A stretch of 36,620 bases of DNA from a virus (IMGVR_UViG_2675903417_000002:1-36620); one strand, 5' to 3'. Positions 229 through 36,500 are shown, numbered from the stretch's first letter. Notes: generated by a model not told the origin, from the letters alone. Numbers and translations are program-made.

Positions 229-2118
229 ATGAAATCCGAAACGCTAACCATCCAGCAAATTTTCCAAAATCAACGACAATATCGTGTTCCATTCTATCAA
301 CGTGCCTACGTATGGACGCAACGAAACCAATGGTCAGCTTTGCTGGAGGATATCTTCGAAAAAGCACAGAGCCGACTTTCGGGAACAAAACCAACCCCTC
401 ATTTCCTCGGCGCGGTGGTGCTGGAACCTCAACTCAAAAACAGCTTGTTAGGTGTAGATACCATACATATTATTGACGGCCAGCAACGTTTAACCACTCT
501 TCAATATATTCTGGCATCCATTCGATTATCATTGCGTGCTACAGGCCTTTCTGAACTGGAAGGGTTAGTATTGACTTGCTTGAAAAATACAAACGAAGCA
601 ACGATGAGAAATAAAAAGGTAGAATGCTTCAAACTGTGGCCAACTTTTCGAGATCAAACTCATTTTATTCAAAGTCTTAATGTTGATAATATTGACGATC
701 TCCGTAATGTATTTTCTGATAGCTTCACGCAACATGGTACGTTACGTAAACATTTCAACCACCCGCCGTCACTAGAGGCATTATGGTTTTTTACTGAAGC
801 CTTTATAAAATGGATTAAAATAGAAAACCGCTCACCACAAGAAAATGCTGTAGCACTAATTGAGGCTGTCTTGACGGATCTGAAACTGGTAAGCATATTT
901 CTCGAAGCTGAAGATGATGCCCAAATAATTTTTGAAACATTAAATGGGCGAGGAGCGGAACTTCATGCAACGGATCTTATTCGCAACTATATCTTTATGT
1001 GCGCTGAGCATGAAAATATTAATACTATTGAATTATATGAAAATGAGTGGAAGATCTTTGAAGATAAATACTGGTCGGAAAAGCAACGCCGTGGACGTAT
1101 TAATAAACCACGCATGGAGTGGCTTGTACATGCGACATTGCAATCAGAAAGGCAGCGTGAAATTGATCTGTCTCGCCTTTACAATGAGTATCGTGATTAT
1201 GTAAGTAAGGACTTGCCTTCACAACGAGCAGATCTGCAAGTAAAGCGCCTCAAACAATATGCATCACAATATAAAGAATTGGTTGGTGGTTTTGGCACAA
1301 CCCCCATCTCACACTTTGGACATCGCATCGCAGCCTATGATGTGACGACACTCTATCCGCTTGCTTTGTTCATTTCGATAGCTAACATCGCCGATGATGA
1401 GAAAGCAGCCATGTATAATGATCTTGTCTCCTACGTAGTACGAAGAGCCGTATGTGGCCTGACGCCAAAGAATTACAACAATGTATTTATGAATGTATTG
1501 CGACACTTGTCTAAAACGGAAATTTCCAGTATTGAGTTACGTAATATCCTCAATAGCTTAAATGGCGAAGCCTCACGTTGGCCTGGGGACTCAGAATTTC
1601 TCAACGCTTGCATCAATGCTCCACTTTATCCTGGCAGGCTCGACGCACCGAAAATGCGCTCAATGTTAACGGAACTTGAAAGAGAACTTTGTCGCCAAGT
1701 GAAGACAGAAAAGCCTGATGTTCCAAATCTTTCTAATCTCGATATCGATCATCTTATGCCTCAAAGTTGGTATTCCTGTTGGCCTCTCGAAAATGGTCAT
1801 ATGGTGACAAATTCAGATGCTACGGTAATGAACCAAATTGTTCTGTCTGGAACCGATCTTACCCCTGAACAGCTACTGGTAAGGAAACGGCAACAAGCGA
1901 TAGCTACGTTGGGAAATCTAACTTTGCTTAACCTTAGCGTAAACCGTTCCGTTCAGAATGCTGTATTTCTGAAAAAACGTGATGCTCTCATCGTCCACAC
2001 CAATCTACGACTGAACATACCACTTATACTTAAGGATAAATGGGATGAGAGTGAAATACTGGAGCGAGGTAAAAAGTTGGGGGAAATTGCATTGAAAGTA
2101 TGGCCAAAATACGATTAA
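229..2118 (+). CDS. GmrSD-family (DUF262 + DUF1524) type IV restriction endonuclease-like defence protein
   Basis: 629-aa ORF; N-terminal DUF262 motifs (VPFYQRAYVW, IIDGQQRLTTL at nt 475-489) and C-terminal DUF1524 His-Me finger-like motif (DIDHLMPQSW at nt 1741-1770); AGGT RBS before ATG 229; AT-rich relative to the phage structural genes. Confidence 0.7.
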   Translation: MKSETLTIQQIFQNQRQYRVPFYQRAYVWTQRNQWSALLEDIFEKAQSRLSGTKPTPHFLGAVVLEPQLKNSLLGVDTIHIIDGQQRLTTLQYILASIRLSLRATGLSELEGLVLTCLKNTNEATMRNKKVECFKLWPTFRDQTHFIQSLNVDNIDDLRNVFSDSFTQHGTLRKHFNHPPSLEALWFFTEAFIKWIKIENRSPQENAVALIEAVLTDLKLVSIFLEAEDDAQIIFETLNGRGAELHATDLIRNYIFMCAEHENINTIELYENEWKIFEDKYWSEKQRRGRINKPRMEWLVHATLQSERQREIDLSRLYNEYRDYVSKDLPSQRADLQVKRLKQYASQYKELVGGFGTTPISHFGHRIAAYDVTTLYPLALFISIANIADDEKAAMYNDLVSYVVRRAVCGLTPKNYNNVFMNVLRHLSKTEISSIELRNILNSLNGEASRWPGDSEFLNACINAPLYPGRLDAPKMRSMLTELERELCRQVKTEKPDVPNLSNLDIDHLMPQSWYSCWPLENGHMVTNSDATVMNQIVLSGTDLTPEQLLVRKRQQAIATLGNLTLLNLSVNRSVQNAVFLKKRDALIVHTNLRLNIPLILKDKWDESEILERGKKLGEIALKVWPKYD

Positions 2119-2343: not shown

Positions 2344-2397
2344 AGTGGATCCCTCTGACAAAAGCAGGAATGATGCCATTTGCTCGTTATTTCTGCA

Positions 2398-2423
2398 TTT
2401 TCATAAACGTTGGTTTGGGAGAA
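2398..2423. other. Left hix/gix-like 26-bp recombination site of the invertible tail-fibre segment
   Basis: Reverse complement reads TTCTCCCAAACC-AA-CGTTTATGAAAA; shares a 16-bp identical core with the site at 4234-4259 in inverted orientation; AAACC-NN-GGTTT-type core as in hix/gix sites. Confidence 0.65.
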
Positions 2424-2948
2424 GGCTCTGCATTACCTGTTGGTGTCCCTGTTCCGTGGCCTTCAGCCACTCCGCCAACAGGCTGGCTGAAATGCAACGG
2501 AGCAGCTTTTTCTGCTGAAGAATACCCGGAACTGGCAAAGGCTTACCCGACAAATAAATTGCCAGATTTACGTGGTGAGTTTATTCGTGGCTGGGATGAC
2601 GGGCGTGGTGTGGATGCGGGACGTGCCTTGCTAAGTCTTCAGGATGACTCTTTTGAAGCGCACAGGCATGAGTCCTTTTTTTACGCGGGTATTTCTCGCA
2701 ATGAAATACCATTAAAAAATCTTCCAAGTTCAGACGAGATGCTGACTTTAAGTTCTACAACTAATGCCTTGTCCCCGGACGGTATTGATGCCACTAATTC
2801 GTTAATTGGTAATGATGATTACAACTGTCTGATTGAAGGAAATAAAAATAACAAACGAACAGCGACGGGGTTGAGCACCAGTATTGTCGGTGCAGCAGAG
2901 ACCCGTCCACGTAATATTTCATTTAATTACATTGTGAGGGCTGCATGA
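2411..2948 (+). CDS. Alternative (currently unfused) tail-fibre C-terminal variable segment
   Basis: ORF 2370..2948 carries the GLGEG crossover-encoded peptide then a tail-fibre/collar-like C-terminus; sits inside the invertible segment in opposite orientation to the expressed fibre gene. Confidence 0.55.
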
Positions 2949-3550
2949 TGTATAACGCCATCTTAAATAATAAATTTATTGCCACAAAGGCAGGAGAGAT
3001 TACCGTTTATAACTATGACAGTGAGACACGGGAGTATATTTCTGCATCAACTGAATATCTTGCTGTGGGTGTCGGTATCCCTGCATATTCCTGTTTAGAT
3101 GCTCCTGACACACATAAGGTTGGTTATGCAATCTGCCGTTCGGCAGATTTAAACTCATGGGAATATGTGCCAGACCATCGCGGTGAAGTTGTCTATAACA
3201 CCGAAACGGGAGAATCAAAAGAAATCACAGCTCCGGGTGATTACCCTGAAAATACAACCACTATCGTCCCGTTAACGCCATACGATAAATGGGATGGTGA
3301 GAAATGGGTGACAGATACTGAGGCACAGCATAGTGCCGCAGTAGACGCGGCAGAAGCACAGCGCCAGTCGCTGATTGATGCTGCAATGGCTTCCATCAGT
3401 CTGATTCAACTGAAATTACAGGCCGGGCGGAAGCTGACGCAGGCAGAAACAACCCGATTTAACGCCGTGCTGGATTACATTGACGCGGTGACGGTAACAG
3501 ATACCAGCACCACGCCGGATGTCATCTGGCCTGAACTGCCGGAGGCGTAG
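2945..3550 (+). CDS. Tail fibre assembly protein (partner of the alternative fibre C-terminus)
   Basis: 201-aa ORF starting [25 protein letters not shown], typical Tfa N-terminus; overlaps preceding ORF by 4 nt. Confidence 0.7.
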
Positions 3551-3950
3551 GCCATTCAATATCGGGTGCTGTTGAAGTATCAACACGCATCAGCAGCACA
3601 CGGTATTTCTTCCATTCGGTGAGAGTTGAAGTTTCTTCATCAGTTGCGATATCAGCATCAACAGCATCCTGACGCCAGGATATTTCACTGTCAGCTTTTT
3701 CCCGTAATTGGGATTTTTTAACTTCAGCAATAGCTATTAATTCCTTTTTGGTCGGCTGAGGAATATCTATCAGTGCTGGTTTTCCATTCAGTGTTCCAAT
3801 CTGTTTTCCTGGTGGAATATCCGTAAATAACTTTTTATGTTCTTCCTCACTGACTATTACACCATCATCAGGCCACAGACCTGATGCCTCAAATTTTTCT
3901 TTCTCCGATATGGGGAAAAAGCCATTTGCTTTAGCGCTCCATACGTACAT
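3522..3950 (-). CDS. Tail fibre assembly protein (partner of the expressed fibre)
   Basis: 142-aa ORF directly downstream of the expressed tail-fibre gene; Tfa-like sequence; convergent with the other Tfa as in Mu G / e14 P segments. Confidence 0.7.
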
Positions 3951-3951
3951 A

Positions 3952-4536
3952 TCAATACCCCACCGCTATAATGTCCACATTAAATCCCCCGGGACCTGCC
4001 TGCCAGATGCTGGCCCCTGTTAATGATTTTGTTTGATGAACAACCGCCACATTTGCTGGCGATTGTGTTTCAGTTGTTACAGTACCGATATCATTCCAGT
4101 TAATTGAGATGGAATAGTTCGTTGTTGTAAACGACCGGGGGAAAGTTATGTGTCTTACATTGGTGCCGACAGGAAATCCAAGATAAACACGCTGAATTAT
4201 CATTCCTCCAGGTAACATAACCCAGTTAGCACCTTCTCCCAAACCAAGGTTTTCGAGAGCTGTTTTCACCGTGCCATCCGATTTGATATCGCCAAACGGA
4301 TTCTTGCGGCTTAACAGCAGCGCACGAAGCGCGGTAAGCAGCTGGTCATGCCGCCCCTTCTCCAGGCTGGCACCGGATGCCTCCACAACGCTGCAAAGCT
4401 CCTCCTGCAACATGTCAAAGTAGTCATCATCCAGATCGGTGGCAGGCGTGCCGGTCTGGGGGTTACCACGGGTAAAACCGTTCTTACCCGCGCCGAACTT
4501 ATCCTTCTGCGCGGTTTTCGTGTCTATACGATGCAT
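3952..4536 (-). CDS. Short side tail fibre protein (constant N-terminus fused to the current variable C-terminus)
   Basis: 194-aa ORF; crossover site falls at the NLGLGEG codons; follows the baseplate genes. Confidence 0.7.
4234..4259. other. Right hix/gix-like 26-bp recombination site inside the expressed tail-fibre gene
   Basis: TTCTCCCAAACC-AA-GGTTTTCGAGAG on the plus strand; inverted copy of the site at 2398-2423. Confidence 0.65.
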
Positions 4537-6588: not shown

Positions 6589-7133
6589 GCCTCCATCGCT
6601 TTATCCGGTTTGTCGGTGTTACTGCCCTGACCGTTCTCTCTGTGACTATGCCCGTTATAGGCAAGCCGCATCGCTGACATGGTGGTGCCGCCGGAGTCGC
6701 ACAGGTCTTTCACCTGTCCTGTCACTTCCAGGTCCATTTCAAAACGTGCTTCAGGTGCATTGCGAAACGTGATCGTTTTACCTGCACCGTCCACCACGAT
6801 CCCCTCCCGGGTCAGCGTCACGGACTGCCCCTGATCGTCATAGACAGCCACCTCACCCGTCTGCAGCCCTTTCAGGCGGTAGCGACGGTCCGACACCGTA
6901 ACAACCACCGCATGAGAACGGTCGCCATCCGGAAACAACACCACCGCTTCCGCACCGCTGTTTGCCCTTGCGGTAAAACCGTAGGGTTCAAGATGTTCAA
7001 CCCCGGCTTTGGGTTCACCGGCAATCAGGAACACATCCACGGTCTGACATTTCGTGGCGGCACTGATGCTTTTCACCACGGCCCGCCCAATCAGGCCGAG
7101 GAGTTGTCGCTGCATGGCTTCAATCGTCCTCAT
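6585..7133 (-). CDS. Baseplate assembly protein V / spike (Mu gp45-like)
   Basis: 182-aa ORF, position and size consistent with gpV-like spike. Confidence 0.55.
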   Translation of the reverse strand: MRTIEAMQRQLLGLIGRAVVKSISAATKCQTVDVFLIAGEPKAGVEHLEPYGFTARANSGAEAVVLFPDGDRSHAVVVTVSDRRYRLKGLQTGEVAVYDDQGQSVTLTREGIVVDGAGKTITFRNAPEARFEMDLEVTGQVKDLCDSGGTTMSAMRLAYNGHSHRENGQGSNTDKPDKAMEA

Positions 7134-8212
7134 CAGAACGGGTCCTCCTGTACTCTGGCTTTTTTCTTTTTCCGCGCGCCGGGGGCTTCGGGTTCAGGCA
7201 GATAAGCATCAGGCGGGCCGACACGGATTTCCGTCAGGGTGCCGTTCTGGTCCTGAGTAAACGTGACTTCCGAAACAAGCAGTTCGGTATTGTCGAAACC
7301 ACAGACCGGATCAAAGACAATCACCCGCTGGTTGGGCTGCCACAGCGTACCGTTACCCTGTCGCCAGCCCTGCACCACATAGGTGGTTTCATCCGTCCGC
7401 GCCGCCCGTTGTCGGGCTTCAAAGTCCGCACGGGCAATACAGCCTGCCCCCGTAGCCTGCCCTGTCTGCCTGATATACATCGGACGGTAACGGGCAATAA
7501 ATGCGTCCTCTGTGCGGGCCCGCAGCGCGGTGGTGGTGGCCTCACCGAAATCATCGTCGTTTCCGGCACGCTGCCCCGCCACCTGGTAAACAGAAAACCG
7601 CTCCCGGATACTCTTCTCCGTATCGCAGGAAAGGATGTTTTCCCCGAGTACCAGCGCAGTATGTGCCCGCGTTGAGCCAATACCACCAATCACCAGCCTG
7701 CCGTGCGGGTCGTCGTAAGCCAGTGCCTGCTGCTGACCGAGTATTTTGTTGATTACCTCAATCACCGTTTCACCGTGATCGGGCTGGACGTCAGGAATAA
7801 CACCCGACGGCGCACCGTTGTTCACCCCCTCAATGCCGAAAGGCGCAGCAAGCGCCTGCGCAATCTGTACCAGCGATCGTCCGTTAAACTGTGTCGGTTC
7901 GGCTGCACAGTCAATCAGGTCAGCAGTCAGACTACGTCCGGCAATACCGGTGCTGACCGAACGGGCATCGTAACGAACGGGGGTCGCCTCCACCCAGCCG
8001 GTGATCACCAGCTCATCACCAATCAGCACTTCCACTTTTGAACCATTTTTAATGCGCGGCTGAAGCGTGGTGATACCCTCATCTCCCGGCCACTGGCGGG
8101 TGATCTCCACGCTGAAATCCCGCGCCAGCCGTTCAATACCGGCACCGATGCGCACCGATGTCCAGCCATTCCACTCCCGGCCATTTACCCGTAGCGTGAC
8201 ATTGTCGTTCAT
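7133..8212 (-). CDS. Mu P-like (gp44) baseplate hub / tail protein
   Basis: 359-aa ORF between the DNA circulation protein and gpV-like gene. Confidence 0.55.
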   Translation of the reverse strand: MNDNVTLRVNGREWNGWTSVRIGAGIERLARDFSVEITRQWPGDEGITTLQPRIKNGSKVEVLIGDELVITGWVEATPVRYDARSVSTGIAGRSLTADLIDCAAEPTQFNGRSLVQIAQALAAPFGIEGVNNGAPSGVIPDVQPDHGETVIEVINKILGQQQALAYDDPHGRLVIGGIGSTRAHTALVLGENILSCDTEKSIRERFSVYQVAGQRAGNDDDFGEATTTALRARTEDAFIARYRPMYIRQTGQATGAGCIARADFEARQRAARTDETTYVVQGWRQGNGTLWQPNQRVIVFDPVCGFDNTELLVSEVTFTQDQNGTLTEIRVGPPDAYLPEPEAPGARKKKKARVQEDPF

Positions 8213-9537
8213 TGCACTGGCACCTTCAGAGGGATCACCGGCACAAAGCCGGGATGCGTAATGGCATTACGCCGGATAATGTCCGCGTCACGCGCCGCGT
8301 TATCAAACCAGGTCGCCGCCAGCACCAGCGCGGGTAAAACCTCATCCGGCGTGCGCTGAATGATCCGAGCAGACTGTTCAAGGCGCGTGTTGATATCCGC
8401 ATTCAGATCTGCTTTCACCCGGCGCAGCGCCAGAAACAGCGCATCACTGGTTGTACGGGACAACTCCTTATCAATTGCCATATTCAGTGTGTCGCGAATG
8501 TCGGTCAGTTCTTCCCACGTTGGCAGGTCAACCGTGTTTTTCACCGCCGGTGCATTGTTCAGCACCGGATGCGTGACGGCAGGCCAGCCGGAGCTCTGCG
8601 CGGGTGTTGTTGACTGCCCCACTGCGGCATTCTGCATCACCGCAGAAGTTGTTGGCGCAGGCAATCGGGTAACGGCATACGCCGCTTCGCTGATTGCAGT
8701 CGTACGAAGGGTGCTGGCAACCATGTTACGCTGCTGCGTCGCTGTGGCGGTGGTTTTACTGTCCATTTTCCAGACGCCGCGCGGTTGCAAATCGCTGCCG
8801 AGGCTGACACCAGAAAGCGTTTTGATCATGGTGACCAGGTCGCTGGCGTTACCATAAAGGCGTTTCCCGGTACGCCACATTTTCTGCACCTGCTCAACGA
8901 AATTTTTGCCTGACGATGGCGGCGGCAGAAGTACCGAGATATCCCCCTGCAACAGCCTGGCGGCATCCGATACGGCAGAATCCACCACTTTCATCGCATC
9001 AGAAACATACCCAAGCATTGTGCTGGCATTACCGACGACGTCGTTCTGCACAAAATCCGCCACGCCATCGATACTAAAACCGCTGAAGCTGTTACTGATG
9101 CAGTCATCCAGTGCAGAACAGGATGACATCAGCGCCTGCGCCGTCGCCGCACCTGATGTGGGGTAAGAGAGTTCTCCTGCTTCGACAAACTTCAGGTCAA
9201 AGCGGACAATACGTCCTTCACTCTTCGATGTGCTGACCCGAACTTCTCCGTCAACACAGACTTTCAGCTCACCGTAAGTCGGATGGACAAGCGTGCCGGG
9301 ACCGGGTTTATTCAGCGCGTCAATCAGGCGATCGCGCTGGTCAAAGCAGTCATCTCCCACCACATAAGCCGTGATGGACGGGCGGAAAGTAATTTTCCCC
9401 AGGTCTTCGGTATAGGGTTTGTCGCGGTTCGGGTATTCGTGCGTTTCCACACGACGGCCAGTTCCCGCACTTTCTTCTTCAACCTTAAACGGCACACCTC
9501 GAAATGACGCATCCTGAAGCCTGTCTTTCCACGTCAT
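8209..9537 (-). CDS. DNA circulation protein N-like (Mu gp43-like) tail protein
   Basis: 442-aa ORF immediately downstream of the tape measure region in a Mu-like tail module. Confidence 0.6.
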   Translation of the reverse strand: MTWKDRLQDASFRGVPFKVEEESAGTGRRVETHEYPNRDKPYTEDLGKITFRPSITAYVVGDDCFDQRDRLIDALNKPGPGTLVHPTYGELKVCVDGEVRVSTSKSEGRIVRFDLKFVEAGELSYPTSGAATAQALMSSCSALDDCISNSFSGFSIDGVADFVQNDVVGNASTMLGYVSDAMKVVDSAVSDAARLLQGDISVLLPPPSSGKNFVEQVQKMWRTGKRLYGNASDLVTMIKTLSGVSLGSDLQPRGVWKMDSKTTATATQQRNMVASTLRTTAISEAAYAVTRLPAPTTSAVMQNAAVGQSTTPAQSSGWPAVTHPVLNNAPAVKNTVDLPTWEELTDIRDTLNMAIDKELSRTTSDALFLALRRVKADLNADINTRLEQSARIIQRTPDEVLPALVLAATWFDNAARDADIIRRNAITHPGFVPVIPLKVPVQ

Positions 9538-9558
9538 ATATACTCCGAAAATTAAAAA

Positions 9559-9578
9559 GCCACCTATTAGAAGGTGGC
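9559..9578 (-). terminator. Rho-independent terminator downstream of the AT-rich moron
   Basis: 7-bp stem gccacct/aggtggc with 6-nt loop, followed on the minus strand by a TTTTT run. Confidence 0.55.
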
Positions 9579-9598
9579 CTTGTAATGAATTTTATTAA

Positions 9599-10129
9599 TT
9601 AGCGAGTCAGAAACAACGAATCTTTATACTTTTGCTGTTGTTCATTTAAATACTTAGCTGTTTCATCGCTGGCAAATGGAAATATTACCGTATTTTTAGG
9701 CATGGTAATTTCTTTTTTGTCCAGCGTCAGAGTAAACATAGGAACATACTGAGCAGAGTAACGCACCGCAGAAACGAGCTCTAGTTTAGACTCTTCAATA
9801 ACACTTAAATTATCCAGGCTAACTTTCTCTTCATCTTTTTTCTTTGACGCATTTAAAGTTTTTATTACTTTATTTAATTTCCCCTGAAAATCCTCCTTAA
9901 AGTTTTCAGGATTGCCGTCGACAACAAGAATCTGTTCACCCTGATTATCTGGAAAAATAATCTTTGCACTTATCAATTTATTTTCTTTATAAACATCACC
10001 AAGTTTTATGGCTCCTCCAGATAACTGAATAATATGTTCATCTTTAAAGGAGATGTTGCCAGAGATTATGAGAGATGAAAAAATAGCCGCTGCTCCAAGA
10101 ATTACACTTGCTGTGATATAGCCTTTCAT
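9599..10129 (-). CDS. AT-rich moron: exported or membrane-anchored protein of unknown function
   Basis: 176-aa ORF with hydrophobic N-terminus (SVILGAAAIFSSLIISG), Lys/Glu-rich body; clearly lower GC than the flanking tail genes; own promoter-like and terminator signals. Confidence 0.6.
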   Translation of the reverse strand: MKGYITASVILGAAAIFSSLIISGNISFKDEHIIQLSGGAIKLGDVYKENKLISAKIIFPDNQGEQILVVDGNPENFKEDFQGKLNKVIKTLNASKKKDEEKVSLDNLSVIEESKLELVSAVRYSAQYVPMFTLTLDKKEITMPKNTVIFPFASDETAKYLNEQQQKYKDSLFLTR

Positions 10130-10164
10130 TTTTCGCCTATTAACATTTTTCTAAATGTGCATTA

Positions 10165-10192
10165 ATTCTATCACTCTATTTATGACTTACAA
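10165..10192 (-). promoter_or_regulatory. Sigma70-like promoter for the moron (TTGTAA - 16 bp - TAGAAT)
   Basis: Hexamers read on the minus strand about 36 nt upstream of ATG 10129. Confidence 0.4.
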
Positions 10193-10220
10193 CCAGCAAT
10201 ACCTGTGAGGGGAATCCTGG

Positions 10221-12053
10221 CTACCAAAATCGGGTATAGCCAACATCGTGATTTATATCAATGCCACTGGAGCGTGTTTCCGTAACCCGCATACCTGGTG
10301 GCATATTTATAAATGATACCTTGATCTCACCATCAACTTTTGGCGCGGTAGCTTTATTAATCATGAAGGGATTCGAGCTTGTGGCACCGGAGGCGTTGTT
10401 TGCCTGAGCCGGATCCACCTCCGGATAAGGAGTGTATCCCCGTGGCGGTATTCCCGTCTCATAAGCATCATAAGCACCCGCGCCCCACTGCGCCGAGTTA
10501 ATGGCATCGACCGTGTCACCGGAACTGTCGGTAAACCATTCAATAATCGGCTTCAGCTTATCCCACATATCCTGAAACCACTTAACAACCGGTCCCCAGT
10601 TATTGATCACCATCCCCAGCGGCGACCAGGCAAAAACCTTCTTCAGAAGTTCCCAGCCAGCCTCAAAATAAGGACTAATGGTTTCCCAGAGTTTCTTAAA
10701 ATAAGGTCCGACAACATCCCAGTTAGTGATAATTAATCCCGCAGCCAGGGCAATCGCCGTCGCAATCATGCCAATCGGCGTCATCGACATGATCCTGCTG
10801 ACGATACTGATGGCACTGCCCACGCCCATCAATCCCAGTTTCAGAATCGCAAGACCGGCAGCAAGCCCGACGACGCCGCGAATAACCCGGGGATTTTCAT
10901 CCGCAAACTTCGTGAATTTTTCCCCTAACTCCCCCAGCCATTGCGTGATATTTTTGGCGTCACCAGAAAATGCGCCACCAATAGCCGCAAGGCCGTTAGT
11001 TGCGGTCCCCGTCATTGCCTCCCACAGGTTGGACAGCGTACCAAGCTGGGCCTGAACACGTTTATTCAGGCTGGCCTGTTTATGCATCTTCTGCTGGATC
11101 TGATCGTAACCATTCTTTCCTTTATCGATCAGAGCATTGACCACCTGAAGGGTTTCGGCATCATCACCAAATATTGCCTTAAGTACACCGGTTCGCTTAA
11201 CGTCGGTCAGTTTTCGCAGCTTTGCCAGTTGCCTGAACATGTTATCAAGACCGCCAAAACTCCCTTTGCCATCAGTAAAATCGAGCTGTACCCCGAGTTT
11301 CTGGCGGGCCATGATTTTATTGACGTCCCTGATTTTCTTAACGCTTAATCCGGACTGGATAACTTTTCGCAGGGCATTACCTGCCGACTCCCCGTTCATC
11401 CCCATCTGATCCATCATGACGCTGATGGGGGCAAGGCTCTGTGCAGCCTGAAGACCGTCCTTGTTCACCATCTTCAGAACAGAACTGGTTTTAGTGAAGA
11501 AGGACAACATGTTGGTATCGTCAACGCCCAGATAAAACGCCTTCTGGATAGTGTCGAACAGCCCCATCATGTCTTCTGACGCCGTTCCGGTAGCATCCTG
11601 CATCTTTGCGGCAAACTCGGCAGCCGCTTCCGGTGTTTTTTTCAGTTGTACCGCAAGATAAGCTGTCGCTTTACCCACACCGCCAAGAATGTTTTCTGCC
11701 GGGATCCCCTGACGCACCAGCATCTGCATCATGTTCTGAAAATCAGCCGTTGTACCGGGTAGCTGGTTACCCAGACCAATAGCCAGTTTATTGATGTCCT
11801 GAAAGCTCTTTCCGACCTCACCGTTCGCATCCATCATGGCAACTTTCAGCCCGGTGGCGGCGTTTTCCTGATCGGCATAAGATTTCAGGGAAAGCGTCAG
11901 ACCCGCAGCCAGTCCGCCACCAAGCGCCAGCCCACCCTGTGACGCTTCTTCCGCCTGGCGTTTAAATCCCCGGATTTTCTTTTGTATTTTCGACAGCGCG
12001 GGAGAAAGCCTGTCGACACCGGTGATCAACGCCTTAAGCTCAAATTCAGCCAT
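10221..12053 (-). CDS. Tail tape measure protein
   Basis: 610-aa ORF, Gly/Ala-rich with hydrophobic segments; follows the frameshifted chaperone pair. Confidence 0.75.
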   Translation of the reverse strand: MAEFELKALITGVDRLSPALSKIQKKIRGFKRQAEEASQGGLALGGGLAAGLTLSLKSYADQENAATGLKVAMMDANGEVGKSFQDINKLAIGLGNQLPGTTADFQNMMQMLVRQGIPAENILGGVGKATAYLAVQLKKTPEAAAEFAAKMQDATGTASEDMMGLFDTIQKAFYLGVDDTNMLSFFTKTSSVLKMVNKDGLQAAQSLAPISVMMDQMGMNGESAGNALRKVIQSGLSVKKIRDVNKIMARQKLGVQLDFTDGKGSFGGLDNMFRQLAKLRKLTDVKRTGVLKAIFGDDAETLQVVNALIDKGKNGYDQIQQKMHKQASLNKRVQAQLGTLSNLWEAMTGTATNGLAAIGGAFSGDAKNITQWLGELGEKFTKFADENPRVIRGVVGLAAGLAILKLGLMGVGSAISIVSRIMSMTPIGMIATAIALAAGLIITNWDVVGPYFKKLWETISPYFEAGWELLKKVFAWSPLGMVINNWGPVVKWFQDMWDKLKPIIEWFTDSSGDTVDAINSAQWGAGAYDAYETGIPPRGYTPYPEVDPAQANNASGATSSNPFMINKATAPKVDGEIKVSFINMPPGMRVTETRSSGIDINHDVGYTRFW

Positions 12054-12228
12054 GTGTGCGTTTCTCCTGCTCTATCCTGTTTGCCTGACTGACCAGCAAG
12101 GGAATTTCACTGATCGGCATATTCAGCAATTCGAAGGGATTAATGCGCCAGTAGCTGGCGCAGTCAAAGAAGCGATCAGTGAGGTATTCAGCCGTCAGGC
12201 CTGGAGGAAAAAACCAGCCACAAGCCAC
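12046..12228 (-). CDS. Tail assembly chaperone -1 frameshift extension (second frame)
   Basis: 60-aa ORF in the -1 frame relative to 12195..12464, overlapping its 3' end and the tape measure start; joined through a T_TTT_TTC slippery heptamer. Confidence 0.5.
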   Translation of the reverse strand: MACGWFFPPGLTAEYLTDRFFDCASYWRINPFELLNMPISEIPLLVSQANRIEQEKRTHG

Positions 12229-12464
12229 GCCGCTGCATTCAGGTCTGCCGGAGACATCTGGTCGACAGAGTTTTGCGGCACTTTCGCCAGCCGCACAATG
12301 TATTTCGATACCACATGCGCCAGAAGTCTGACGGACTCATCCTGATTCATCTGGTAGGGATACCCCAGCTCGCGGACATCCTTCCCGGTGGGTTCATCAA
12401 ACTCCAGTACGGAGAGTGTCTCACCATGAGCGATAATCGGTTTCTTTAACTCAAGCTCTTTCAT
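12195..12464 (-). CDS. Tail assembly chaperone (upstream frame)
   Basis: 89-aa ORF between tail tube and tape measure; ends AAWLVAGFFLQA with slippery site in the GFF codons. Confidence 0.65.
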   Translation of the reverse strand: MKELELKKPIIAHGETLSVLEFDEPTGKDVRELGYPYQMNQDESVRLLAHVVSKYIVRLAKVPQNSVDQMSPADLNAAAWLVAGFFLQA

Positions 12465-12820
12465 TACTGGTAATCCCCTTCTTCACCGTGGAACTCAAGA
12501 TCAACCGTGCCTTCTTCGGCATTATGGTTCGCTTCGCCGTGCAGCCAGGCGGACGACAATACATAGACCTGACCGTTCGCCAGCTCGGCAGTGATGGTCA
12601 TCTCATCAGACGAGGTGATTTTGCTCACCGGAAAATTCTTCGGCACCTTGAAGGTCCCTTTGACATAAGGCGCACGGTGAGTTTCCTTGCGGTCCACTGA
12701 ACCGTCCAGGCCGATGATGTCATCATTGACCGTCCTGTTCATGGGCACCTCAATGCCGCCGGTCAGCGATAGCTGCTGACCGTCAATTTTGAAATAACAG
12801 GTTCCCCCGATACGGGCCAT
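12464..12820 (-). CDS. Tail tube protein (Mu M-like)
   Basis: 118-aa ORF immediately downstream of the sheath gene. Confidence 0.7.
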   Translation of the reverse strand: MARIGGTCYFKIDGQQLSLTGGIEVPMNRTVNDDIIGLDGSVDRKETHRAPYVKGTFKVPKNFPVSKITSSDEMTITAELANGQVYVLSSAWLHGEANHNAEEGTVDLEFHGEEGDYQ

Positions 12821-14316
12821 TATGCAGACTCCTCTGAATACTGAAGACGGAACTGGTTAACCACGGCAAAGACACGCAACTGGTTAACATAGTCAGGCGG
12901 GAACAGCGTGTTCAGGCGGTTCGGATCGCTGGCATCACGCTCCACAACCAGGTACTGCTTAAACAGTTCGTAGTTTTCCACGATCCCCGCACGCTCAAGC
13001 TGACGGTAGGTTGCCAGCAGTTCCCCTTTGATCACCGCCGGGGTGACAATCGCCTGACCGGGACCAAAGCGGGTACCGTCGCTGGCAAGCTTGTGACGCC
13101 CGTACTTACTGGTAATGACGGATTTCAGTTTGCGCAGTACATACGCACTGGTATGCAGCGTCTCGCTGTCGAGGTAGCTGTTATCCGCAACCCCGTAAGC
13201 GTTTTTCCTGTACGTGGTGACATCACGCTGAATGCGCAGTACCCCACTTTCGACATACGCCGTTGCCACGCCATGAGACAGCAGGGTCTGTTGTTCTGTC
13301 ATCGTGAACCGTTTCCCCTTCGGCGCAGGCAGCATACCCACCAGCTCACCGGTCTGCGTGGGACGTGCCGGATCGTTGCGGATAAACACCGCTGCGCGGG
13401 CGGTACGGCTTGCCGCCAGCTCGTCGGCAGGTGTCTGGGTTTCTTTTTCGTATCCCGCCAGGGTAATGTGCTGCTGGTTAAACTGGTCACCTGCGGTCAC
13501 CAGTTCTGACAGCGTGCCGGTCTTTGCCGTATACACATGACCATACAGCTGACGCGCATAGCTCCAGCGACCGCTGGTATCGTTCATCTCGGTCACCAGC
13601 GTGTTAACGGAGGCCGTGTCGTTGAACGGCAGACCGATATAATCAAACGGCTCATCCGCCATTGCAGCCACCGCACCGGTGAGAACCGGAGCGCCCGTTC
13701 CGGCGGTACCCGTCGCCACAGCAATCTGTACGCCCGCTGGCAGCACTTCGCCCCCACCAAAGCCGTAGTAATTGAGGCTGACAGGAATTTCATTCCCGCA
13801 AAGCCCCTTATGACGCGCGGTCAGTGTGACCACGCCTGCCGAAGATGAGGCCGTAAACGGCAGGGTCGGAACGGCATTGATGGCATCCTGGATACTGCTG
13901 GCAATCGTCGCGACGTTATCGCCATTGGTCACCGGTGCCTGCACGCGGGTACGTCCCACATAAACATTCACCGTGCCGGTTTCGGTTGCCGCCCCTGTCA
14001 CCGTCAGCGTAACCGTTGCCGCCGCGCCCGTGGATTCAGGAACGGCAATCACATACAACTCGCCAAACGGGTCGGTCTGGCGATAAGCCTCAACCATACG
14101 CGCCAGCTGACTTCCCGCACCACAAATCTGGCGTGCATAGTCTGCCGACGGCATCAGCACCAGACTGTTGGCAACAATCTCTGCACCGTTATTGGCATGA
14201 CCAATCAGCAGCGACGCTCCGCTGTCCTGTGCAGTATTCGCCGCCGAGTTATCCATTTCCGCATAAAACAACGGAACCAGCGTATTCGACGGAATGGTGT
14301 TAAAGCTTATCGTCAT
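12820..14316 (-). CDS. Contractile tail sheath protein
   Basis: 498-aa ORF, size and position typical of myovirus sheath (Mu L-like). Confidence 0.8.
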   Translation of the reverse strand: MTISFNTIPSNTLVPLFYAEMDNSAANTAQDSGASLLIGHANNGAEIVANSLVLMPSADYARQICGAGSQLARMVEAYRQTDPFGELYVIAVPESTGAAATVTLTVTGAATETGTVNVYVGRTRVQAPVTNGDNVATIASSIQDAINAVPTLPFTASSSAGVVTLTARHKGLCGNEIPVSLNYYGFGGGEVLPAGVQIAVATGTAGTGAPVLTGAVAAMADEPFDYIGLPFNDTASVNTLVTEMNDTSGRWSYARQLYGHVYTAKTGTLSELVTAGDQFNQQHITLAGYEKETQTPADELAASRTARAAVFIRNDPARPTQTGELVGMLPAPKGKRFTMTEQQTLLSHGVATAYVESGVLRIQRDVTTYRKNAYGVADNSYLDSETLHTSAYVLRKLKSVITSKYGRHKLASDGTRFGPGQAIVTPAVIKGELLATYRQLERAGIVENYELFKQYLVVERDASDPNRLNTLFPPDYVNQLRVFAVVNQFRLQYSEESA

Positions 14317-24295: not shown

Positions 24296-25081
24296 TTATC
24301 GGGGAAGGTGTTGCTTTGGTCCTTCCCAACTGAAGGAATTAAAAACTTTTTGGATTAAATTTTGCAACTTTGCCAAAGACTCTGTCGAAATATCTACTTC
24401 ACCATAATAGCCATCAGCCATAGTGCACCCAAATTTAGTTCCGAATAAGTTATTCAACATCAATGCCCCCTGAGGTGCAACAACATGAATATTATTTACA
24501 GGTTTGAGTTTTATTGGCTTTGGTTCTTTCTCTGCACCAAGCCCACGAACTCTGTCTTCCATGTGTTGAGCTGAATTCCTTACCTTTCTTAAATCCGGAA
24601 AGTCTTTAGAAAGCTGTTCATGCAATTTTTTAATGTTCTCTGGCGCGCCATTTTCTTTTGAAATTACCTTTAAAAATTTATCAATAGCATCCAAAGCGTA
24701 GAGAAATGATTTTGCATGTAAGAAGATCAATCTGTGTTGATGAGCCAACGGATATTCACCGTTATTCCATTTTTCTCTTTTTAGACGTAGCTCGACCTCT
24801 GAAAAAACCTGTTCTGAATATTCATAAGGTTGATAACCAAACTCTTTACGAACCAGCATTTCCAGTGCTTGTCGTTTCTGTACATCAGCTTGCCATGTCT
24901 GAGAAATATTATCGAATTTACTGTTATTCTTAGTTCTTTCCTGTTCGAATAAATTTAATGCTACATTAGCATCATAAAATGCAGTTTCTAAATGGGATAA
25001 TAAGTTATTAAACGTCCATTCTAACTCTCTGTTTTCAAACTTAAGATTACTGCCTGGCTTGATTAACTCAAAAACATACAT
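24296..25081 (-). CDS. AT-rich moron protein of unknown function; candidate HEPN-like (Rx4H) toxin or defence protein
   Basis: 261-aa ORF in the Q-to-holin slot; low GC versus neighbours; motif RNSAQH fits Rx4-6H; ATG 25079-25081 with AGGGG RBS; own terminator. Confidence 0.6.
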   Translation of the reverse strand: MYVFELIKPGSNLKFENRELEWTFNNLLSHLETAFYDANVALNLFEQERTKNNSKFDNISQTWQADVQKRQALEMLVRKEFGYQPYEYSEQVFSEVELRLKREKWNNGEYPLAHQHRLIFLHAKSFLYALDAIDKFLKVISKENGAPENIKKLHEQLSKDFPDLRKVRNSAQHMEDRVRGLGAEKEPKPIKLKPVNNIHVVAPQGALMLNNLFGTKFGCTMADGYYGEVDISTESLAKLQNLIQKVFNSFSWEGPKQHLPR

Positions 25082-25155
25082 TTTTTCGACCCCTAGTTGT
25101 ATGGTCGAATAATTATATTACTAATTAATACCGTCATTCTGTTTTTACACAATAA

Positions 25156-25176
25156 AAAACCCGCTCAATGGCGAGT
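25156..25176 (-). terminator. Possible tR'-like weak terminator downstream of the late promoter
   Basis: 5-bp stem with one G-U pair followed by T6 on the minus strand. Confidence 0.3.
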
Positions 25177-25223
25177 TCTTGAAGGTTATCAACAGCAGAT
25201 ACATAAAGCCCATCGTTGAGGAA

Positions 25224-25283: not shown

Positions 25284-26036
25284 TTATCTTGTCACCTTTC
25301 TCAATTGTGTCTCTGCATATGCTTCTTCCTGCCAGCACTTTGTAACCAGTTTATCAATGACATCTGCATATCCTTTGTACCACTGATAATCCGTCAGGTC
25401 TGGTACCAGCTTCTGGACATGATTCCGCGCCAGTGTGGTTGGTAAACGGCTAAATCGGTTTCCATTGCAACGCCCACAAATCTTATAAACAGGCGTGCCA
25501 TGAAGCCGGGTCCTTTTTTCATCCAGGACAATACCTTTACCCTTACACCCTCTGCACGCTGTGCTGACTTCTCCCTTACCATGACAATGCTGACATAGTT
25601 CCTTCACCCACTCTTCCTTGATAACAGATTCCCCGCTTCTGGAGTGTTTCACCACCTCGCGCAATACATTATGAAATCCAGTACCAGCACAATGCTCACA
25701 GCGAGCCTTACTTGCCGCAGACCTGGAATAATCAGCAAAGGCAAAATTCACAAGGTAAGGGATGATCTGTAACCGGATTTCTTCACTCAATTTGTTCAAT
25801 GTCGGGTTATCCAGTGCCATCGCGTAATTGAGCAGACCTTCAATCGCAAACTGAGGATCCTGAACACCAACTTTTGCCAGGAATAAGGCAAACCCAAGCG
25901 GTGCTTTCGACTGCACCATCCCCTGCGCAGCCATCACATCTGTAATTGTTAAACCACCCGAGCCTGTCGCCGGTGCGTCATCACTCAATTTTGGAGATTT
26001 TGGGGAGTAATATTTTGGTAAAGCTTCAAGGTTCAT
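25284..26036 (-). CDS. Late-gene antitermination protein Q
   Basis: 250-aa ORF with Cys-rich zinc-binding region (CEHCAGTG...CQHCHGKG...CRGCKGKG), positioned just upstream of the lysis genes. Confidence 0.75.
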   Translation of the reverse strand: MNLEALPKYYSPKSPKLSDDAPATGSGGLTITDVMAAQGMVQSKAPLGFALFLAKVGVQDPQFAIEGLLNYAMALDNPTLNKLSEEIRLQIIPYLVNFAFADYSRSAASKARCEHCAGTGFHNVLREVVKHSRSGESVIKEEWVKELCQHCHGKGEVSTACRGCKGKGIVLDEKRTRLHGTPVYKICGRCNGNRFSRLPTTLARNHVQKLVPDLTDYQWYKGYADVIDKLVTKCWQEEAYAETQLRKVTR

Positions 26037-35602: not shown

Positions 35603-35863
35603 ATGAGGTTATCAAAAATGCTTCAAATGCTGACACTTGAGGAATGGGCTGCGGAAAAATTTAGGAGTAATCCTCCAAGTGTGTCCACATTGCGTCGTTA
35701 TGCTAAGCAGAATTTATTTTGTCCACCGGCAATGAAACAAGGTCGACTATGGCGAGTACGTGAGGACGCAGAGTTAGTTGGGGAATTAGTTACTCCTGTC
35801 ATCAAGAAAAATGATTCTATTATTCTACAAAGGATTTTAAGTAATGGCAGCCAGACCACGTAA
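35603..35863 (+). CDS. xis: Excisionase (lambda Xis-like)
   Basis: LTLEEWAAEKF...LRRYAKQNLFCPPAMKQGRLWRVRE resembles lambda Xis; overlaps the int start. Confidence 0.65.
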   Translation: MRLSKMLQMLTLEEWAAEKFRSNPPSVSTLRRYAKQNLFCPPAMKQGRLWRVREDAELVGELVTPVIKKNDSIILQRILSNGSQTT

Positions 35864-36500
35864 AAATAATGTTTCAGTCCCGAACTTGTATCCACTCTAT
35901 AGCAGAAAAGTAAATAAAGTTTATTGGCGATATAAGCATCCAGTGACCGGGAAGTTTCATTCTTTGGGCACAAACGAAGCTGAAGCCATTGCTATTGCCA
36001 CTGAGGCCAATACACGCCTGGCTGAGCAAAGAACCCGGCAGATTCTGGCTATCAGTGACAGAATCGCAACCAGCAAAGGAAAAGCAATCACAACGTCAAC
36101 CTGGTTAGATCGCTATCAAGCAATCCAGGATGACAGACTGAAAAGTGGCGATATAAAGCTCAATACCTATAAACAGAAAGCCAAACCAGTATCCTTGCTC
36201 AGGGAACGAGCAGGACTGAAGTTAATTTCAGCCGTTGATGTCAGGGATATAGCCCAGTTGCTTGACGAGTATATCGCCGTCGGACAGCCGAGAATGGCGC
36301 AAGTAGTTCGTTCCGTCCTGATTGATGTATTCAAGGAGGCGCAACACTACGGAGAAGTCCCCCCGGGCTATAACCCGGCATTAGCCACCAAACAGCCCAG
36401 AAGAAAAATTACCCGACAACGGTTAAGTCTTGAAGAATGGCAAAAAATCTTTGAAATCGCAGATGCCAGTCATCGTTATATGGGGAATGGGCTTTGTTGA
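35844..36500 (+). pseudogene. int: Tyrosine integrase, N-terminal ~218 aa only (catalytic domain missing)
   Basis: N-terminal and core-binding region align with lambda Int (PNLY..., WLDRY...), but all three frames hit stops between 36498 and 36519. Confidence 0.55.

What the first reader, a model, noticed from the sequence alone, without database searches (positions are those of the whole stretch)
9559..10192. AT-rich exported-protein moron inserted within the tail operon
A low-GC 176-aa gene with a hydrophobic N-terminus lies between the tape measure and DNA circulation genes, with a TTGTAA-16-TAGAAT promoter and a hairpin plus T-run terminator. This is the classic moron architecture for lysogen-expressed genes. 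Envelope-located proteins at this kind of position (for example Cor-like) often mediate superinfection exclusion.
Basis: partly seen in the sequence, partly recalled or inferred. Interest (0 to 1): 0.6.

Follow-up and report, generated by a model that had tools for sequence, protein, structure and literature searches.

The report
Membrane-protein moron in prophage tail operon
An AT-rich, self-contained gene cassette for an uncharacterised membrane-anchored periplasmic protein sits between two tail genes of an SfV-like E. coli prophage, in a slot that related phages leave empty or fill with other envelope proteins; it is a textbook moron whose function, most plausibly blocking other phages at the envelope, is untested.

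Summary
A 176-aa ORF (9599..10129, minus strand, GC 0.345 against 0.51-0.59 in neighbouring genes) lies between the tape measure and DNA circulation genes. It has an extended -10 promoter-like site upstream and a strong hairpin plus T-run downstream. The moron reading holds. SfV, SfI and SfII share about 97%-identical flanks but have only a short spacer there. In complete E. coli genomes the same slot is empty or holds at least five other unrelated single-gene cargos, most with signal peptides, a lipobox or a membrane anchor. Homologues at 41-57% identity occupy the same slot in Leclercia-type and Edwardsiella prophages. Homologues at about 23% identity sit in small integrase/resolvase islands. 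It is therefore mobile accessory cargo, not a tail part. It is under purifying selection (dN/dS about 0.08). There is no Pfam, NCBIfam, PADLOC or PDB match, and PHROGs lists it as unknown. The AlphaFold core is confident but has no solved structural neighbour. The 20-22-residue uncharged N-terminus, with no cysteine, points to an inner-membrane signal anchor rather than a Cor-like lipoprotein. Superinfection exclusion is the best guess (about 0.4) and is untested. It is a new member of a known kind, of moderate interest.

The parts
9548..10233 (-). Whole moron cassette. This segment has no counterpart in SfV, where a spacer of about 60 bp takes its place.
   Evidence: Alignment of the window with SfV, SKA5, 720R4 and Leclercia loci. 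Similarity to SfV weakens within the last few codons of the tape measure gene and resumes at the ribosome-binding site of the DNA circulation gene (CGGAGT.TATATG). The boundary coordinates are approximate, read. No flanking direct or inverted repeats were found.
10165..10192 (-). Sigma-70 promoter-like site TTGTAA-16-TAGAAT with a TG extended -10.
   Evidence: It is the only minus-strand 9-of-12 site with a TG that lies in an intergenic gap of the late operon. The aligned position in Leclercia-type loci keeps TTGCAA/..AAT. The Edwardsiella homologue has TGTTATAAT about 75 bp upstream of its ATG, the only such match in 12.5 kb. Function was not tested.
10136..10138 (-). Weak Shine-Dalgarno-like AGG, 6 nt before the ATG.
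   Evidence: Read directly from the sequence (aatAGGcgaaaaATG).
9599..10129 (-). Coding sequence: 176 aa, phrog_5485, RefSeq WP_000679479.1, annotated 'hypothetical protein'.
   Evidence: Purifying selection: dN/dS 0.078 between two Leclercia-type alleles. The family has 77 cluster representatives at 50% identity.
10058..10123 (-). Codons 3-24: N-terminal hydrophobic segment, a predicted signal anchor or signal peptide.
   Evidence: Of 56 family representatives, 55 have an uncharged N-terminal stretch; in 54 it is 15-25 residues, and 53 have 1-2 Lys/Arg before it. S8, I10, G12, I21 and S23 are 55-66% conserved. No lipobox was seen, and this protein has no cysteine.
9602..10042 (-). Codons 30-176: predicted periplasmic alpha/beta domain (four strands, helix 74-94, long hairpin 114-143, helix 149-171).
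9546..9581 (-). Intrinsic terminator: 10-bp stem, 6-nt loop and T-run.
   Evidence: -17 kcal/mol, z = -5.75. Hairpins of different sequence occupy the same position in Leclercia-type loci, Edwardsiella, SKA5 and 720R4, and even the empty SfV site.
10221..12053 (-). Upstream flank: tail tape measure gene.
   Evidence: PF10145; annotated as tape measure in RefSeq.
8209..9537 (-). Downstream flank: Mu gpN-like DNA circulation gene.
   Evidence: PF07157.

Best explanation
This is a moron: a horizontally exchanged, self-contained transcription unit (promoter, AT-rich ORF, intrinsic terminator) placed in the spacer between the tape measure and DNA circulation genes of an SfV-like E. coli prophage with a Mu-type tail.

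Its product is most likely a bitopic inner-membrane protein. It would have a 2-residue cytoplasmic N-terminus, one transmembrane anchor (residues about 3-24) and a roughly 150-residue periplasmic alpha/beta domain with no close solved structural relative.

Inferred mechanism:
- In the lysogen the late operon is silent. The cassette's own promoter drives the gene, and the terminator stops transcription from running into the baseplate genes.
- During lytic growth, Q-antiterminated late transcription reads through it.
- The protein acts at the inner membrane or periplasm to block a step of infection by incoming phages, such as tail-tip or tape-measure insertion or DNA transfer across the inner membrane. 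That is superinfection exclusion in the manner of HK97 gp15, P22 SieA or T4 Imm/Sp.

What is shown: the cassette anatomy, its accessory and mobile status, purifying selection, and the envelope-targeting sequence features. What is inferred: expression in lysogens, topology, and any anti-phage activity.

Confidence by step: moron or accessory cargo about 0.9; envelope location about 0.85; signal anchor rather than cleaved signal peptide about 0.6; superinfection exclusion about 0.4.
For: Accessory status:
- The cassette is absent from SfV, SfI, SfII and 689R6, whose flanks are about 97% identical.
- A split query of the two flanks found the junction in 1094 of 5426 complete E. coli genomes. In an evenly spaced sample of 47 two-flank rows, about 25 sites were empty, 9 held this cassette and 13 held other cargo.
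- The other cargos are unrelated: two signal-peptide proteins (SKA5 and 720R4 types), an N-terminally anchored OB-fold protein on the opposite strand, a 225-aa lipoprotein (LLGGC), and one cytoplasmic PH-domain protein.

Composition: GC 0.345 against 0.51-0.59 in neighbours.

Conservation of the unit:
- Homologues at 41-57% identity keep the same slot, low GC, a promoter-like site and a terminator in Leclercia-type and Edwardsiella prophages.
- 76 of 80 IMG/VR viral contigs have both tail flanks directly adjacent.

Mobility and arms-race-like signals:
- The protein is 53-55% identical where flanking tail proteins are mostly 67-88% identical.
- Between two Leclercia-type prophages dS is 1.07 for the cassette against 0.2-0.3 for the flanks, which indicates allele exchange. 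dN/dS is 0.078.
- Homologues at about 23% identity lie in small integrase/resolvase/DUF5906 islands. One is near an Mrr-type nuclease gene and next to another secreted protein.

Envelope targeting.

Operon logic: a Q antiterminator gene lies in the same prophage at 25284..26036.

Precedent: HK97 gp15, the founding moron, lies in the tail operon next to the tape measure gene. It inserts in the inner membrane and blocks phage entry (PMC3594210).
Against: - There are no expression data and no phenotype.
- No match to any PADLOC defence model, Pfam, NCBIfam or PDB sequence. PHROGs lists the family as unknown.
- The only significant fold match is an uncharacterised 'lipoprotein' of a Pseudomonas phage (Foldseek E 3.4e-6, TM 0.53/0.63), which says nothing about function.
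- The promoter motif is not statistically enriched. The -35/-10 hexamers are only partly conserved in Leclercia-type loci, where the scan reported no promoter at that position.
- Many morons encode envelope proteins that serve host fitness rather than phage exclusion.
- No isolated phage in INPHARED carries the gene, so no phage-biology data exist for it.
- One of the six cargo types at the slot is cytoplasmic.
Confidence: 0.42

Rival explanations
1. Lysogenic-conversion envelope factor for host fitness rather than phage exclusion. The membrane-anchored periplasmic protein would alter envelope physiology, for example stress, serum, bile, colicin or antimicrobial-peptide tolerance, or adhesion. 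This is the role of lambda Bor and Lom.
For: Same moron anatomy and envelope targeting. Carried by 179 of 5426 complete E. coli genomes from humans, livestock, soil and water at 99% identity or more. Morons commonly encode such factors (PMC3594210).
Against: The family spans gut Enterobacterales (E. coli, Leclercia, Lelliottia, Edwardsiella, Mangrovibacter) and a metagenome-derived Pseudomonas sp.. It is always found on prophages or small integrative islands, which fits a role in conflict between mobile elements better than a niche-specific host trait. Many alternative cargos at one fixed slot is the pattern described for defence hotspots in P2 and P4 phages (recalled from memory; Rousset et al. 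2022 appears only in a reference list).
Confidence: 0.25
2. A late-expressed phage helper, not a lysogen gene. It would be transcribed mainly with the Q-antiterminated tail operon and act in the periplasm during lytic growth. Possible roles are masking receptors so that progeny are not lost on debris (as with T5 Llp), or modulating lysis timing or envelope integrity.
For: It lies on the same strand inside the late operon, so it must be co-transcribed when Q antitermination overrides its terminator (for Q; gene order). The promoter is only a 9-of-12 match.
Against: It is dispensable in closely related viable phages (SfV, SfI, SfII). A terminator is maintained directly after it in every lineage. 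One alternative cargo at the same slot is on the opposite strand. Distant homologues lie outside any late operon. All of this points to an independent transcription unit.
Confidence: 0.13
3. A structural or assembly component of the Mu-type tail, for example a periplasm-spanning or tape-measure-associated factor.
For: Only its position between the tape measure and DNA circulation genes, and the retention of that position in three diverged prophage lineages.
Against: It is absent from plaque-forming SfV, SfI and SfII with near-identical tail genes. About half of E. coli junctions are empty and others carry unrelated cargo. It has a Sec-type N-terminus, whereas tails assemble in the cytoplasm. 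GC is 0.345. Homologues occur outside phage tail operons.
Confidence: 0.02
4. Not a functional gene: a decaying AT-rich insertion with a chance ORF.
For: No annotation and no known domain.
Against: dN/dS is 0.078-0.093. The family has 77 cluster representatives of conserved length (about 170-180 aa) with invariant G44 and Y124 and a conserved motif. The AlphaFold core is confident. 180 of 181 E. coli records are 99% identical or more.
Confidence: 0.01

Closest known systems
HK97 gp15 moron (Juhala et al. 2000; Cumby et al. 2012; reviewed in PMC3594210)
   Same: Both are single-gene morons inside a tail operon directly beside the tape measure gene. Both have deviant GC and their own promoter and terminator. 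Both products have an N-terminal membrane segment, and gp15 inserts in the inner membrane. Both have relatives outside phages.
   Different: There is no sequence relationship: no Pfam family, including any YebO-type model, is hit. The slot is on the other side of the tape measure gene (tape measure/DNA circulation in a contractile Mu-type tail, against chaperone/tape measure in a siphovirus). gp15 is described as a small protein, whereas this one has a roughly 150-aa folded periplasmic domain. Exclusion is demonstrated for gp15 and not for this protein.
Cor (phi80, N15, HK022) and T5 Llp receptor-masking lipoproteins
   Same: They are prophage- or phage-encoded envelope proteins located near tail genes that exclude phages (for Cor and FhuA).
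   Different: Those are lipoproteins acting on the outer-membrane receptor FhuA (lipoprotein nature recalled from memory). This protein has no cysteine and so no lipobox, and it is predicted to be anchored in the inner membrane. A different cargo at the same slot (225 aa, LLGGC) is the lipoprotein-type one.
Injection-blocking exclusion proteins: P22 SieA, T4 Imm and Sp, P1 Sim, lactococcal Sie2009
   Same: They are inner-membrane or periplasmic proteins made by a resident phage that stop incoming DNA at the envelope (for SieA, Imm and Sp). Sie2009-type proteins are of similar size with an N-terminal anchor (from memory).
Tab of Pseudomonas phage JBD26 (PMC10884400)
   Same: [quoted passage not shown]
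   Different: Tab is an 83-residue protein encoded between the terminase genes. It blocks tail assembly of the invading phage, which happens inside the cell. This protein has a Sec-type N-terminus and would act outside the cytoplasm.
PHROG family phrog_5485
   Same: Full-length match, E = 1.7e-107. This is the family the protein belongs to.
   Different: The family has no assigned function, so membership gives no mechanism.

Membership tests
Moron (definition of Juhala/Hendrix 2000, as summarised in PMC3594210) | Extra DNA between two genes that are adjacent in closely related phages | tested here: met
   SfV, SfI, SfII and 689R6 have about 97%-identical flanks and only a short spacer (46 bp between the annotated genes in SfV). 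Roughly half of sampled E. coli junctions are empty.
Moron (definition of Juhala/Hendrix 2000, as summarised in PMC3594210) | Base composition different from the surrounding genes | tested here: met
   GC 0.345 and GC3 0.30, against 0.51-0.59 and 0.56-0.64. It is one of the two lowest 600-bp bins in the window. The same contrast holds in Leclercia-type and Edwardsiella loci.
Moron (definition of Juhala/Hendrix 2000, as summarised in PMC3594210) | Own promoter | tested here: inconclusive
   TTGTAA-16-TAGAAT with a TG extended -10 lies in the 91-bp gap upstream. The position is partly conserved in Leclercia-type loci, and Edwardsiella has a perfect TGTTATAAT. Motif counts are not above shuffles, and activity was not measured.
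Moron (definition of Juhala/Hendrix 2000, as summarised in PMC3594210) | Own terminator | tested here: met
   Hairpin of -17 kcal/mol, z = -5.75, plus a T-run. Hairpins of different sequence sit at the same place in all homologous loci examined.
Moron (definition of Juhala/Hendrix 2000, as summarised in PMC3594210) | Expressed from the repressed prophage | not testable with these tools
   Needs RNA or protein data from a lysogen.
Cor/Llp-type exclusion lipoproteins | Lipobox with an invariant cysteine after the signal peptide | tested here: not met
   The protein has no cysteine. No lipobox was apparent on inspection of the 56 family N-termini.
Known exclusion and defence protein families with profile models (for example Imm- or YebO-type families in Pfam; PADLOC systems) | Significant match to the family profile | tested here: not met
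   No Pfam family at E <= 0.01, and no consistent Pfam hit across 56 members at E <= 1. No PADLOC model, no NCBIfam model, and no PDB sequence at E <= 10 with the family profile.
Structural tail protein of SfV/Mu-type tails | Present in all functional phages that carry this tail module | tested here: not met
   Absent from SfV, SfI and SfII. Replaced by unrelated genes in SKA5 and 720R4.
Sec-targeted envelope protein (signal peptide or signal anchor) | Short positively charged N-terminus followed by an uncharged hydrophobic stretch of 15 residues or more | tested here: met
   M-K followed by a 22-residue uncharged stretch; Kyte-Doolittle 19-mer maximum 2.1. The feature is present in 55 of 56 family representatives. 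No dedicated predictor (SignalP, TMHMM) was available, and cleavage is undecided: ISG/N is a possible -3/-1 site, but the hydrophobic region is unusually long for a cleaved peptide.
phrog_5485 | Full-length profile match | tested here: met
   E = 1.7e-107, residues 1-176 matching profile positions 1-176 of 176.

The most novel reading that the evidence does not exclude
The tape measure/DNA circulation spacer of SfV-like Mu-tailed prophages could be a dedicated, so far undescribed hotspot for interchangeable envelope-acting anti-phage cassettes. At least six unrelated single-gene cargos occupy it in E. coli, and five are membrane- or periplasm-targeted. The phrog_5485 family would then be a new class of inner-membrane-anchored periplasmic injection blockers with a fold that has no solved relative. 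It is shared between prophage tail operons in Enterobacterales and small integrative islands in Pseudomonas-like bacteria.
Probability: 0.3. Interest if true: 0.6.

Novelty: new member of a known kind. Interest (0 to 1): 0.36.

Why it matters
Morons in tail operons are the classic place where prophages keep genes that pay their rent to the host. The founding example, HK97 gp15, turned out to block phage entry. This cassette is a clean, compact and widespread example of the same design: about 3% of complete E. coli genomes carry it, and about one fifth of SfV-type junctions.

Its protein family has no Pfam, PADLOC or PDB relative. The slot it occupies holds several other envelope-targeted unknowns. 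If even some of these block phage entry, the slot would offer a ready-made set of natural variants for studying how contractile-tailed phages cross the periplasm and inner membrane. It would also help explain patchy phage sensitivity among E. coli strains, which matters for phage therapy. If they do not, this remains an ordinary uncharacterised lysogenic-conversion gene.

Tried and rejected
- Transposon or IS origin: no flanking direct or inverted repeats. Rejected in favour of recombinational cassette exchange.
- Non-coding RNA explanation: no Rfam family anywhere in the window.
- Known domain or defence family: Pfam, NCBIfam, PADLOC and PDB sequence with the family profile were all negative.
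- Scanning GTDB genomes with the family alignments failed because no stretch was conserved enough. Contexts were obtained through exact-protein look-ups instead.
- Isolated phages: neither DNA nor protein searches of INPHARED found the gene.
- 'Plasmid' hits: the one inspected looks like a piece of prophage with an IS26 rather than a true plasmid or a clean excised phage. It was not used as evidence of activity.
- Literature: no paper mentions WP_000679479. The papers on SfV-family phages describe morons only elsewhere, between Q and the lysis genes. No description of this hotspot was found.
- Structural tail protein and pseudogene readings were rejected (see rival explanations).

Full report
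**1. What is there**

The window is an SfV-like temperate prophage of E. coli. It has lambdoid early and late control and a Mu-type contractile tail, with the late genes on the minus strand.
- The interval 7000-13000 is 97% identical to Shigella phages SfV, SfI and SfII and to E. coli phage vB_EcoM-689R6 over 89% of its length.
- Pfam identifies the sheath (12820..14316), tube (12464..12820), tape measure (10221..12053, PF10145), DNA circulation protein (8209..9537, PF07157) and baseplate hub (7133..8212).
- A Q antiterminator lies at 25284..26036, an integrase N-terminus at 35844..36500, and a GmrSD-type restriction gene at 229..2118.
- In a near-identical RefSeq copy the prophage lies next to a truncated isocitrate-dehydrogenase gene fragment (consistent with the icd/e14 attachment site, from memory), and the target ORF is WP_000679479.1, 'hypothetical protein'.

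**2.

- The only ORF of 40 aa or more between the two tail genes is 9599..10129 on the minus strand, 176 aa.
- Its GC is 0.345 (GC3 0.30), against 0.51-0.59 (GC3 0.56-0.64) for the neighbouring genes. The 9601-10200 bin (0.338) is among the two lowest in the window.
- The 91-bp gap upstream holds TTGTAA-16-TAGAAT with a TG extended -10, at 10192..10165.
- Eighteen bases after the stop codon there is a 10-bp-stem hairpin plus a T-run, at 9581..9546. As RNA it folds at -17 kcal/mol, z = -5.75 against shuffles.
- Motif counts in the region are not above chance. The promoter call therefore rests on position and comparison, not statistics.
- No Rfam family and no flanking repeats are present.

**3. 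It is an insertion or replacement cassette in a variable slot**

- SfV has only 46 bp between the two annotated tail genes, and that spacer contains its own small terminator hairpin.
- Similarity between the window and SfV weakens in the last few codons of the tape measure gene and resumes at the ribosome-binding site of the DNA circulation gene. This bounds the cassette at about 9548..10233.
- Phage SKA5 carries a different 170-aa ORF there (phrog_8976), and phage 720R4 a different 162-aa ORF (phrog_5586). Both are AT-rich, have classical signal peptides and are followed by their own terminators.

I then searched complete E. coli genomes with a split query made of the last 500 nt of the tape measure gene and the first 500 nt of the DNA circulation gene.
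- The junction occurs in 1094 of 5426 genomes, and 863 of them have a place covering at least 80% of the split query.
- In an evenly spaced sample of 47 two-flank rows, the spans fall into discrete classes:

| Span (bp) | Slot content | Rows |
|---|---|---|
| 1063 | empty | 25 |
| 1683 (one row 1680) | this cassette | 9 |
| 1684 | same span as the SKA5 site; annotated 'hypothetical protein' (type inferred from length only) | 5 |
| 1588-1589 or 1446 | 'OB-fold protein' | 5 |
| about 1820 | 225-aa protein | 2 |
| 1496 | PH-domain protein | 1 |

- The OB-fold cargo lies on the opposite strand and has an N-terminal membrane segment. The shorter version appears N-terminally truncated.
- The 225-aa protein has a lipobox (LLGGC). 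Only the PH-domain protein lacks any export signal.
- The slot is therefore a hotspot of interchangeable single-gene cargo, and five of the six cargo types are aimed at the envelope.
- The cassette itself is present at 99% identity or more in 180 of 181 matching records, from 179 genomes. In 76 of 80 IMG/VR viral contigs it is directly flanked by the same two tail genes.

**4. The protein family**

- PHROGs places the protein in phrog_5485, function unknown.
- A word-indexed search found relatives of 173-174 aa at 52-57% identity in Leclercia, Lelliottia and metagenomes.
- A full HMMER profile search found 77 cluster representatives at 50% clustering. Nearly all full-length members are 165-200 aa.
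- Named members come from Edwardsiella, Mangrovibacter, Leclercia, Lelliottia, E. coli and a metagenome-derived Pseudomonas sp. All are annotated 'hypothetical'.
- The Leclercia-type homologues (53-55% identity) and the Edwardsiella homologue (41%) sit in the same slot of diverged SfV-like prophages. They keep low GC (0.33-0.36 against about 0.5-0.6), a terminator and a promoter-like element. In Leclercia-type loci this is TTGCAA with ..AAT at the aligned position. In Edwardsiella it is the only TGNTATAAT in 12.5 kb.
- Homologues at about 23% identity lie outside tail operons, in small islands with an integrase, a resolvase and a DUF5906 primase-like gene. In one case the homologue is next to another signal-peptide protein and near an Mrr-type nuclease.

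Evolution of the cassette:
- Between the window and the Leclercia-type prophages, flanking tail proteins are mostly 67-88% identical. One tape measure allele is an exception at 36%. The cargo protein is only 53-55% identical.
- Between two Leclercia-type prophages the cargo has dS 1.07 against 0.2-0.3 for the flanks, and dN/dS 0.078.
- The gene is therefore real and under purifying selection, and its alleles are exchanged independently of the tail backbone.

**5. The protein itself**

- The N-terminus is M-K followed by a 22-residue uncharged stretch (YITASVILGAAAIFSSLIIS within GYITASVILGAAAIFSSLIISG). The protein has no cysteine and no tryptophan.
- Of 56 family representatives, 55 have such a stretch; in 54 it is 15-25 residues, and 53 have one or two Lys/Arg before it. 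S8, I10, G12, I21 and S23 are 55-66% conserved, while mean column identity across the alignment is 28%.
- The length and relative conservation suggest an uncleaved signal anchor (N-terminus in, C-terminus out). By contrast, the neighbouring cargo proteins have short cleavable signal peptides with AxA-type sites. Cleavage after ISG24 cannot be excluded without a predictor or an experiment.
- The rest of the protein has a conserved motif: N/H32, G39, L43-G44, Y47, E49, N93, Y124 and L134.
- With an 18-sequence alignment it folds confidently: mean pLDDT 77, with most 10-residue blocks from residue 31 onward at 75-95. The fold is four strands, a long helix, a long beta-hairpin and a C-terminal helix.
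- Foldseek against viral models gives one significant hit, an uncharacterised 'lipoprotein' of Pseudomonas phage ventosus.
- Pfam, NCBIfam, PADLOC and PDB-sequence searches are all negative.

**6. Most likely mechanism**

Shown:
- a self-contained, horizontally exchanged unit with deviant composition;
- it is dispensable for closely related viable phages;
- it encodes a conserved protein with a Sec-type N-terminus.

Inferred:
- In lysogens the late operon is off. The cassette's promoter then expresses the protein, and the terminator protects the downstream baseplate genes from read-through. In lytic growth, Q-modified polymerase reads through.
- The protein sits in the inner membrane with its domain in the periplasm.

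I rank functions as follows.
- **Superinfection exclusion at the periplasm or inner-membrane step, about 0.4.** Three observations support it. The founding moron, HK97 gp15, occupies an analogous position beside the tape measure gene and blocks entry from the inner membrane (PMC3594210). The slot behaves like a cargo hotspot enriched in envelope proteins. The family travels only on prophages and small integrative islands across ecologically unrelated hosts.
- **A Bor/Lom-like host-fitness role, about 0.25.**
- **A late-expressed helper role, about 0.13.**
- **A structural tail role or a non-gene.** Both are effectively excluded.

**7. Comparison with known systems**

- The cassette works like a classic moron and meets the testable defining features. 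Promoter activity and lysogen expression remain untested.
- It is not a member of the Cor/Llp lipoprotein class, because it has no cysteine.
- It is not a member of any profiled exclusion or defence family.
- It resembles HK97 gp15 in architecture and neighbourhood only.

**8. Verdict**

The moron interpretation is well supported and is now backed by comparative data. 'Exported' should probably read 'membrane-anchored, periplasm-facing'. 'Cor-like' is a loose analogy, not membership. Superinfection exclusion is a reasonable but untested hypothesis.

The finding is a new, uncharacterised member of a well-known kind of element. The added value from this stage is the recognition of a multi-allelic cargo slot and of a wider protein family without known relatives. 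Interest is moderate.

Noticed in passing
window 9538-10220 slot; loci L002 2862-3374, L003 2908-3396, L015 533-979 (-), L016 532-918 (-), L017 591-1268, L018 556-933: The tape measure/DNA circulation spacer is a multi-allelic cargo slot in E. coli SfV-like prophages. It is either empty or holds one of at least six unrelated single genes. Five of the six are envelope-targeted: two signal-peptide proteins, one membrane-anchored OB-fold protein on the opposite strand, one lipoprotein, and the present protein. The sixth is a cytoplasmic PH-domain protein. None matches a PADLOC model.
   Followed up: partly
L001 (SfV) 2805-2834: Even the empty slot in SfV contains a terminator-like hairpin plus T-run between the tape measure and DNA circulation genes. 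This could be a remnant of a lost cassette or a native attenuator inside the tail operon.
   Followed up: no
window 229-2118 (+): A full-length GmrSD-type (DUF262/DUF1524) type IV methyl-directed restriction enzyme gene lies beyond the tail-fibre genes near the low-coordinate end of the window. The region has low GC (about 0.38-0.44). PADLOC mREase_IV matches with E = 0. This is a second, recognisable defence cargo of the same prophage.
   Followed up: partly
window 24296-25081 (-): A second strongly AT-rich island (GC 0.337 in bin 24601-25200) holds a 261-aa ORF with no Pfam or PADLOC match. It lies directly downstream of the Q antiterminator gene and ahead of the downstream late genes. SfIV has a described moron in the equivalent position, between Q and the lysis cassette.
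   Followed up: partly
window 2370-3550 (+) facing 3522-4536 (-): A tail-fibre C-terminal (Collar-domain) fragment and a tail-fibre-assembly gene on the plus strand face a second assembly gene and fibre gene on the minus strand. This is the layout of a Gin/Pin-type invertible host-range segment. In a near-identical RefSeq copy the adjacent recombinase is a frameshifted fragment, so the switch may be locked.
   Followed up: no
L004 10013-11808 (also L005-L009): Leclercia-type relatives carry two extra genes without Pfam matches (about 503-520 aa and 94 aa) between the DNA circulation and baseplate hub genes. Those two genes are adjacent in the window (8209..9537 and 7133..8212), so this is another variable position in the tail module.
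   Followed up: no
L079 3029-3800: One IMG/VR copy has an insertion of about 770 bp between the cassette and the DNA circulation gene. The insertion encodes a 169-aa protein that looks like an IS200/IS605-family TnpA, judged by eye from motifs, and it lies at or next to the terminator hairpin.
   Followed up: partly
L011 6401-6943: In the Pseudomonas-type island, the distant family member is directly preceded by a 180-aa ORF with a classical cleavable signal peptide (…LPAFA/DE). It may be a partner protein or a second envelope cargo.
   Followed up: no
window 10056-10084 (+): A 9-of-12 promoter-like site with a TG lies on the opposite strand inside the ORF. It is most likely a chance match in AT-rich DNA.
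   Followed up: no
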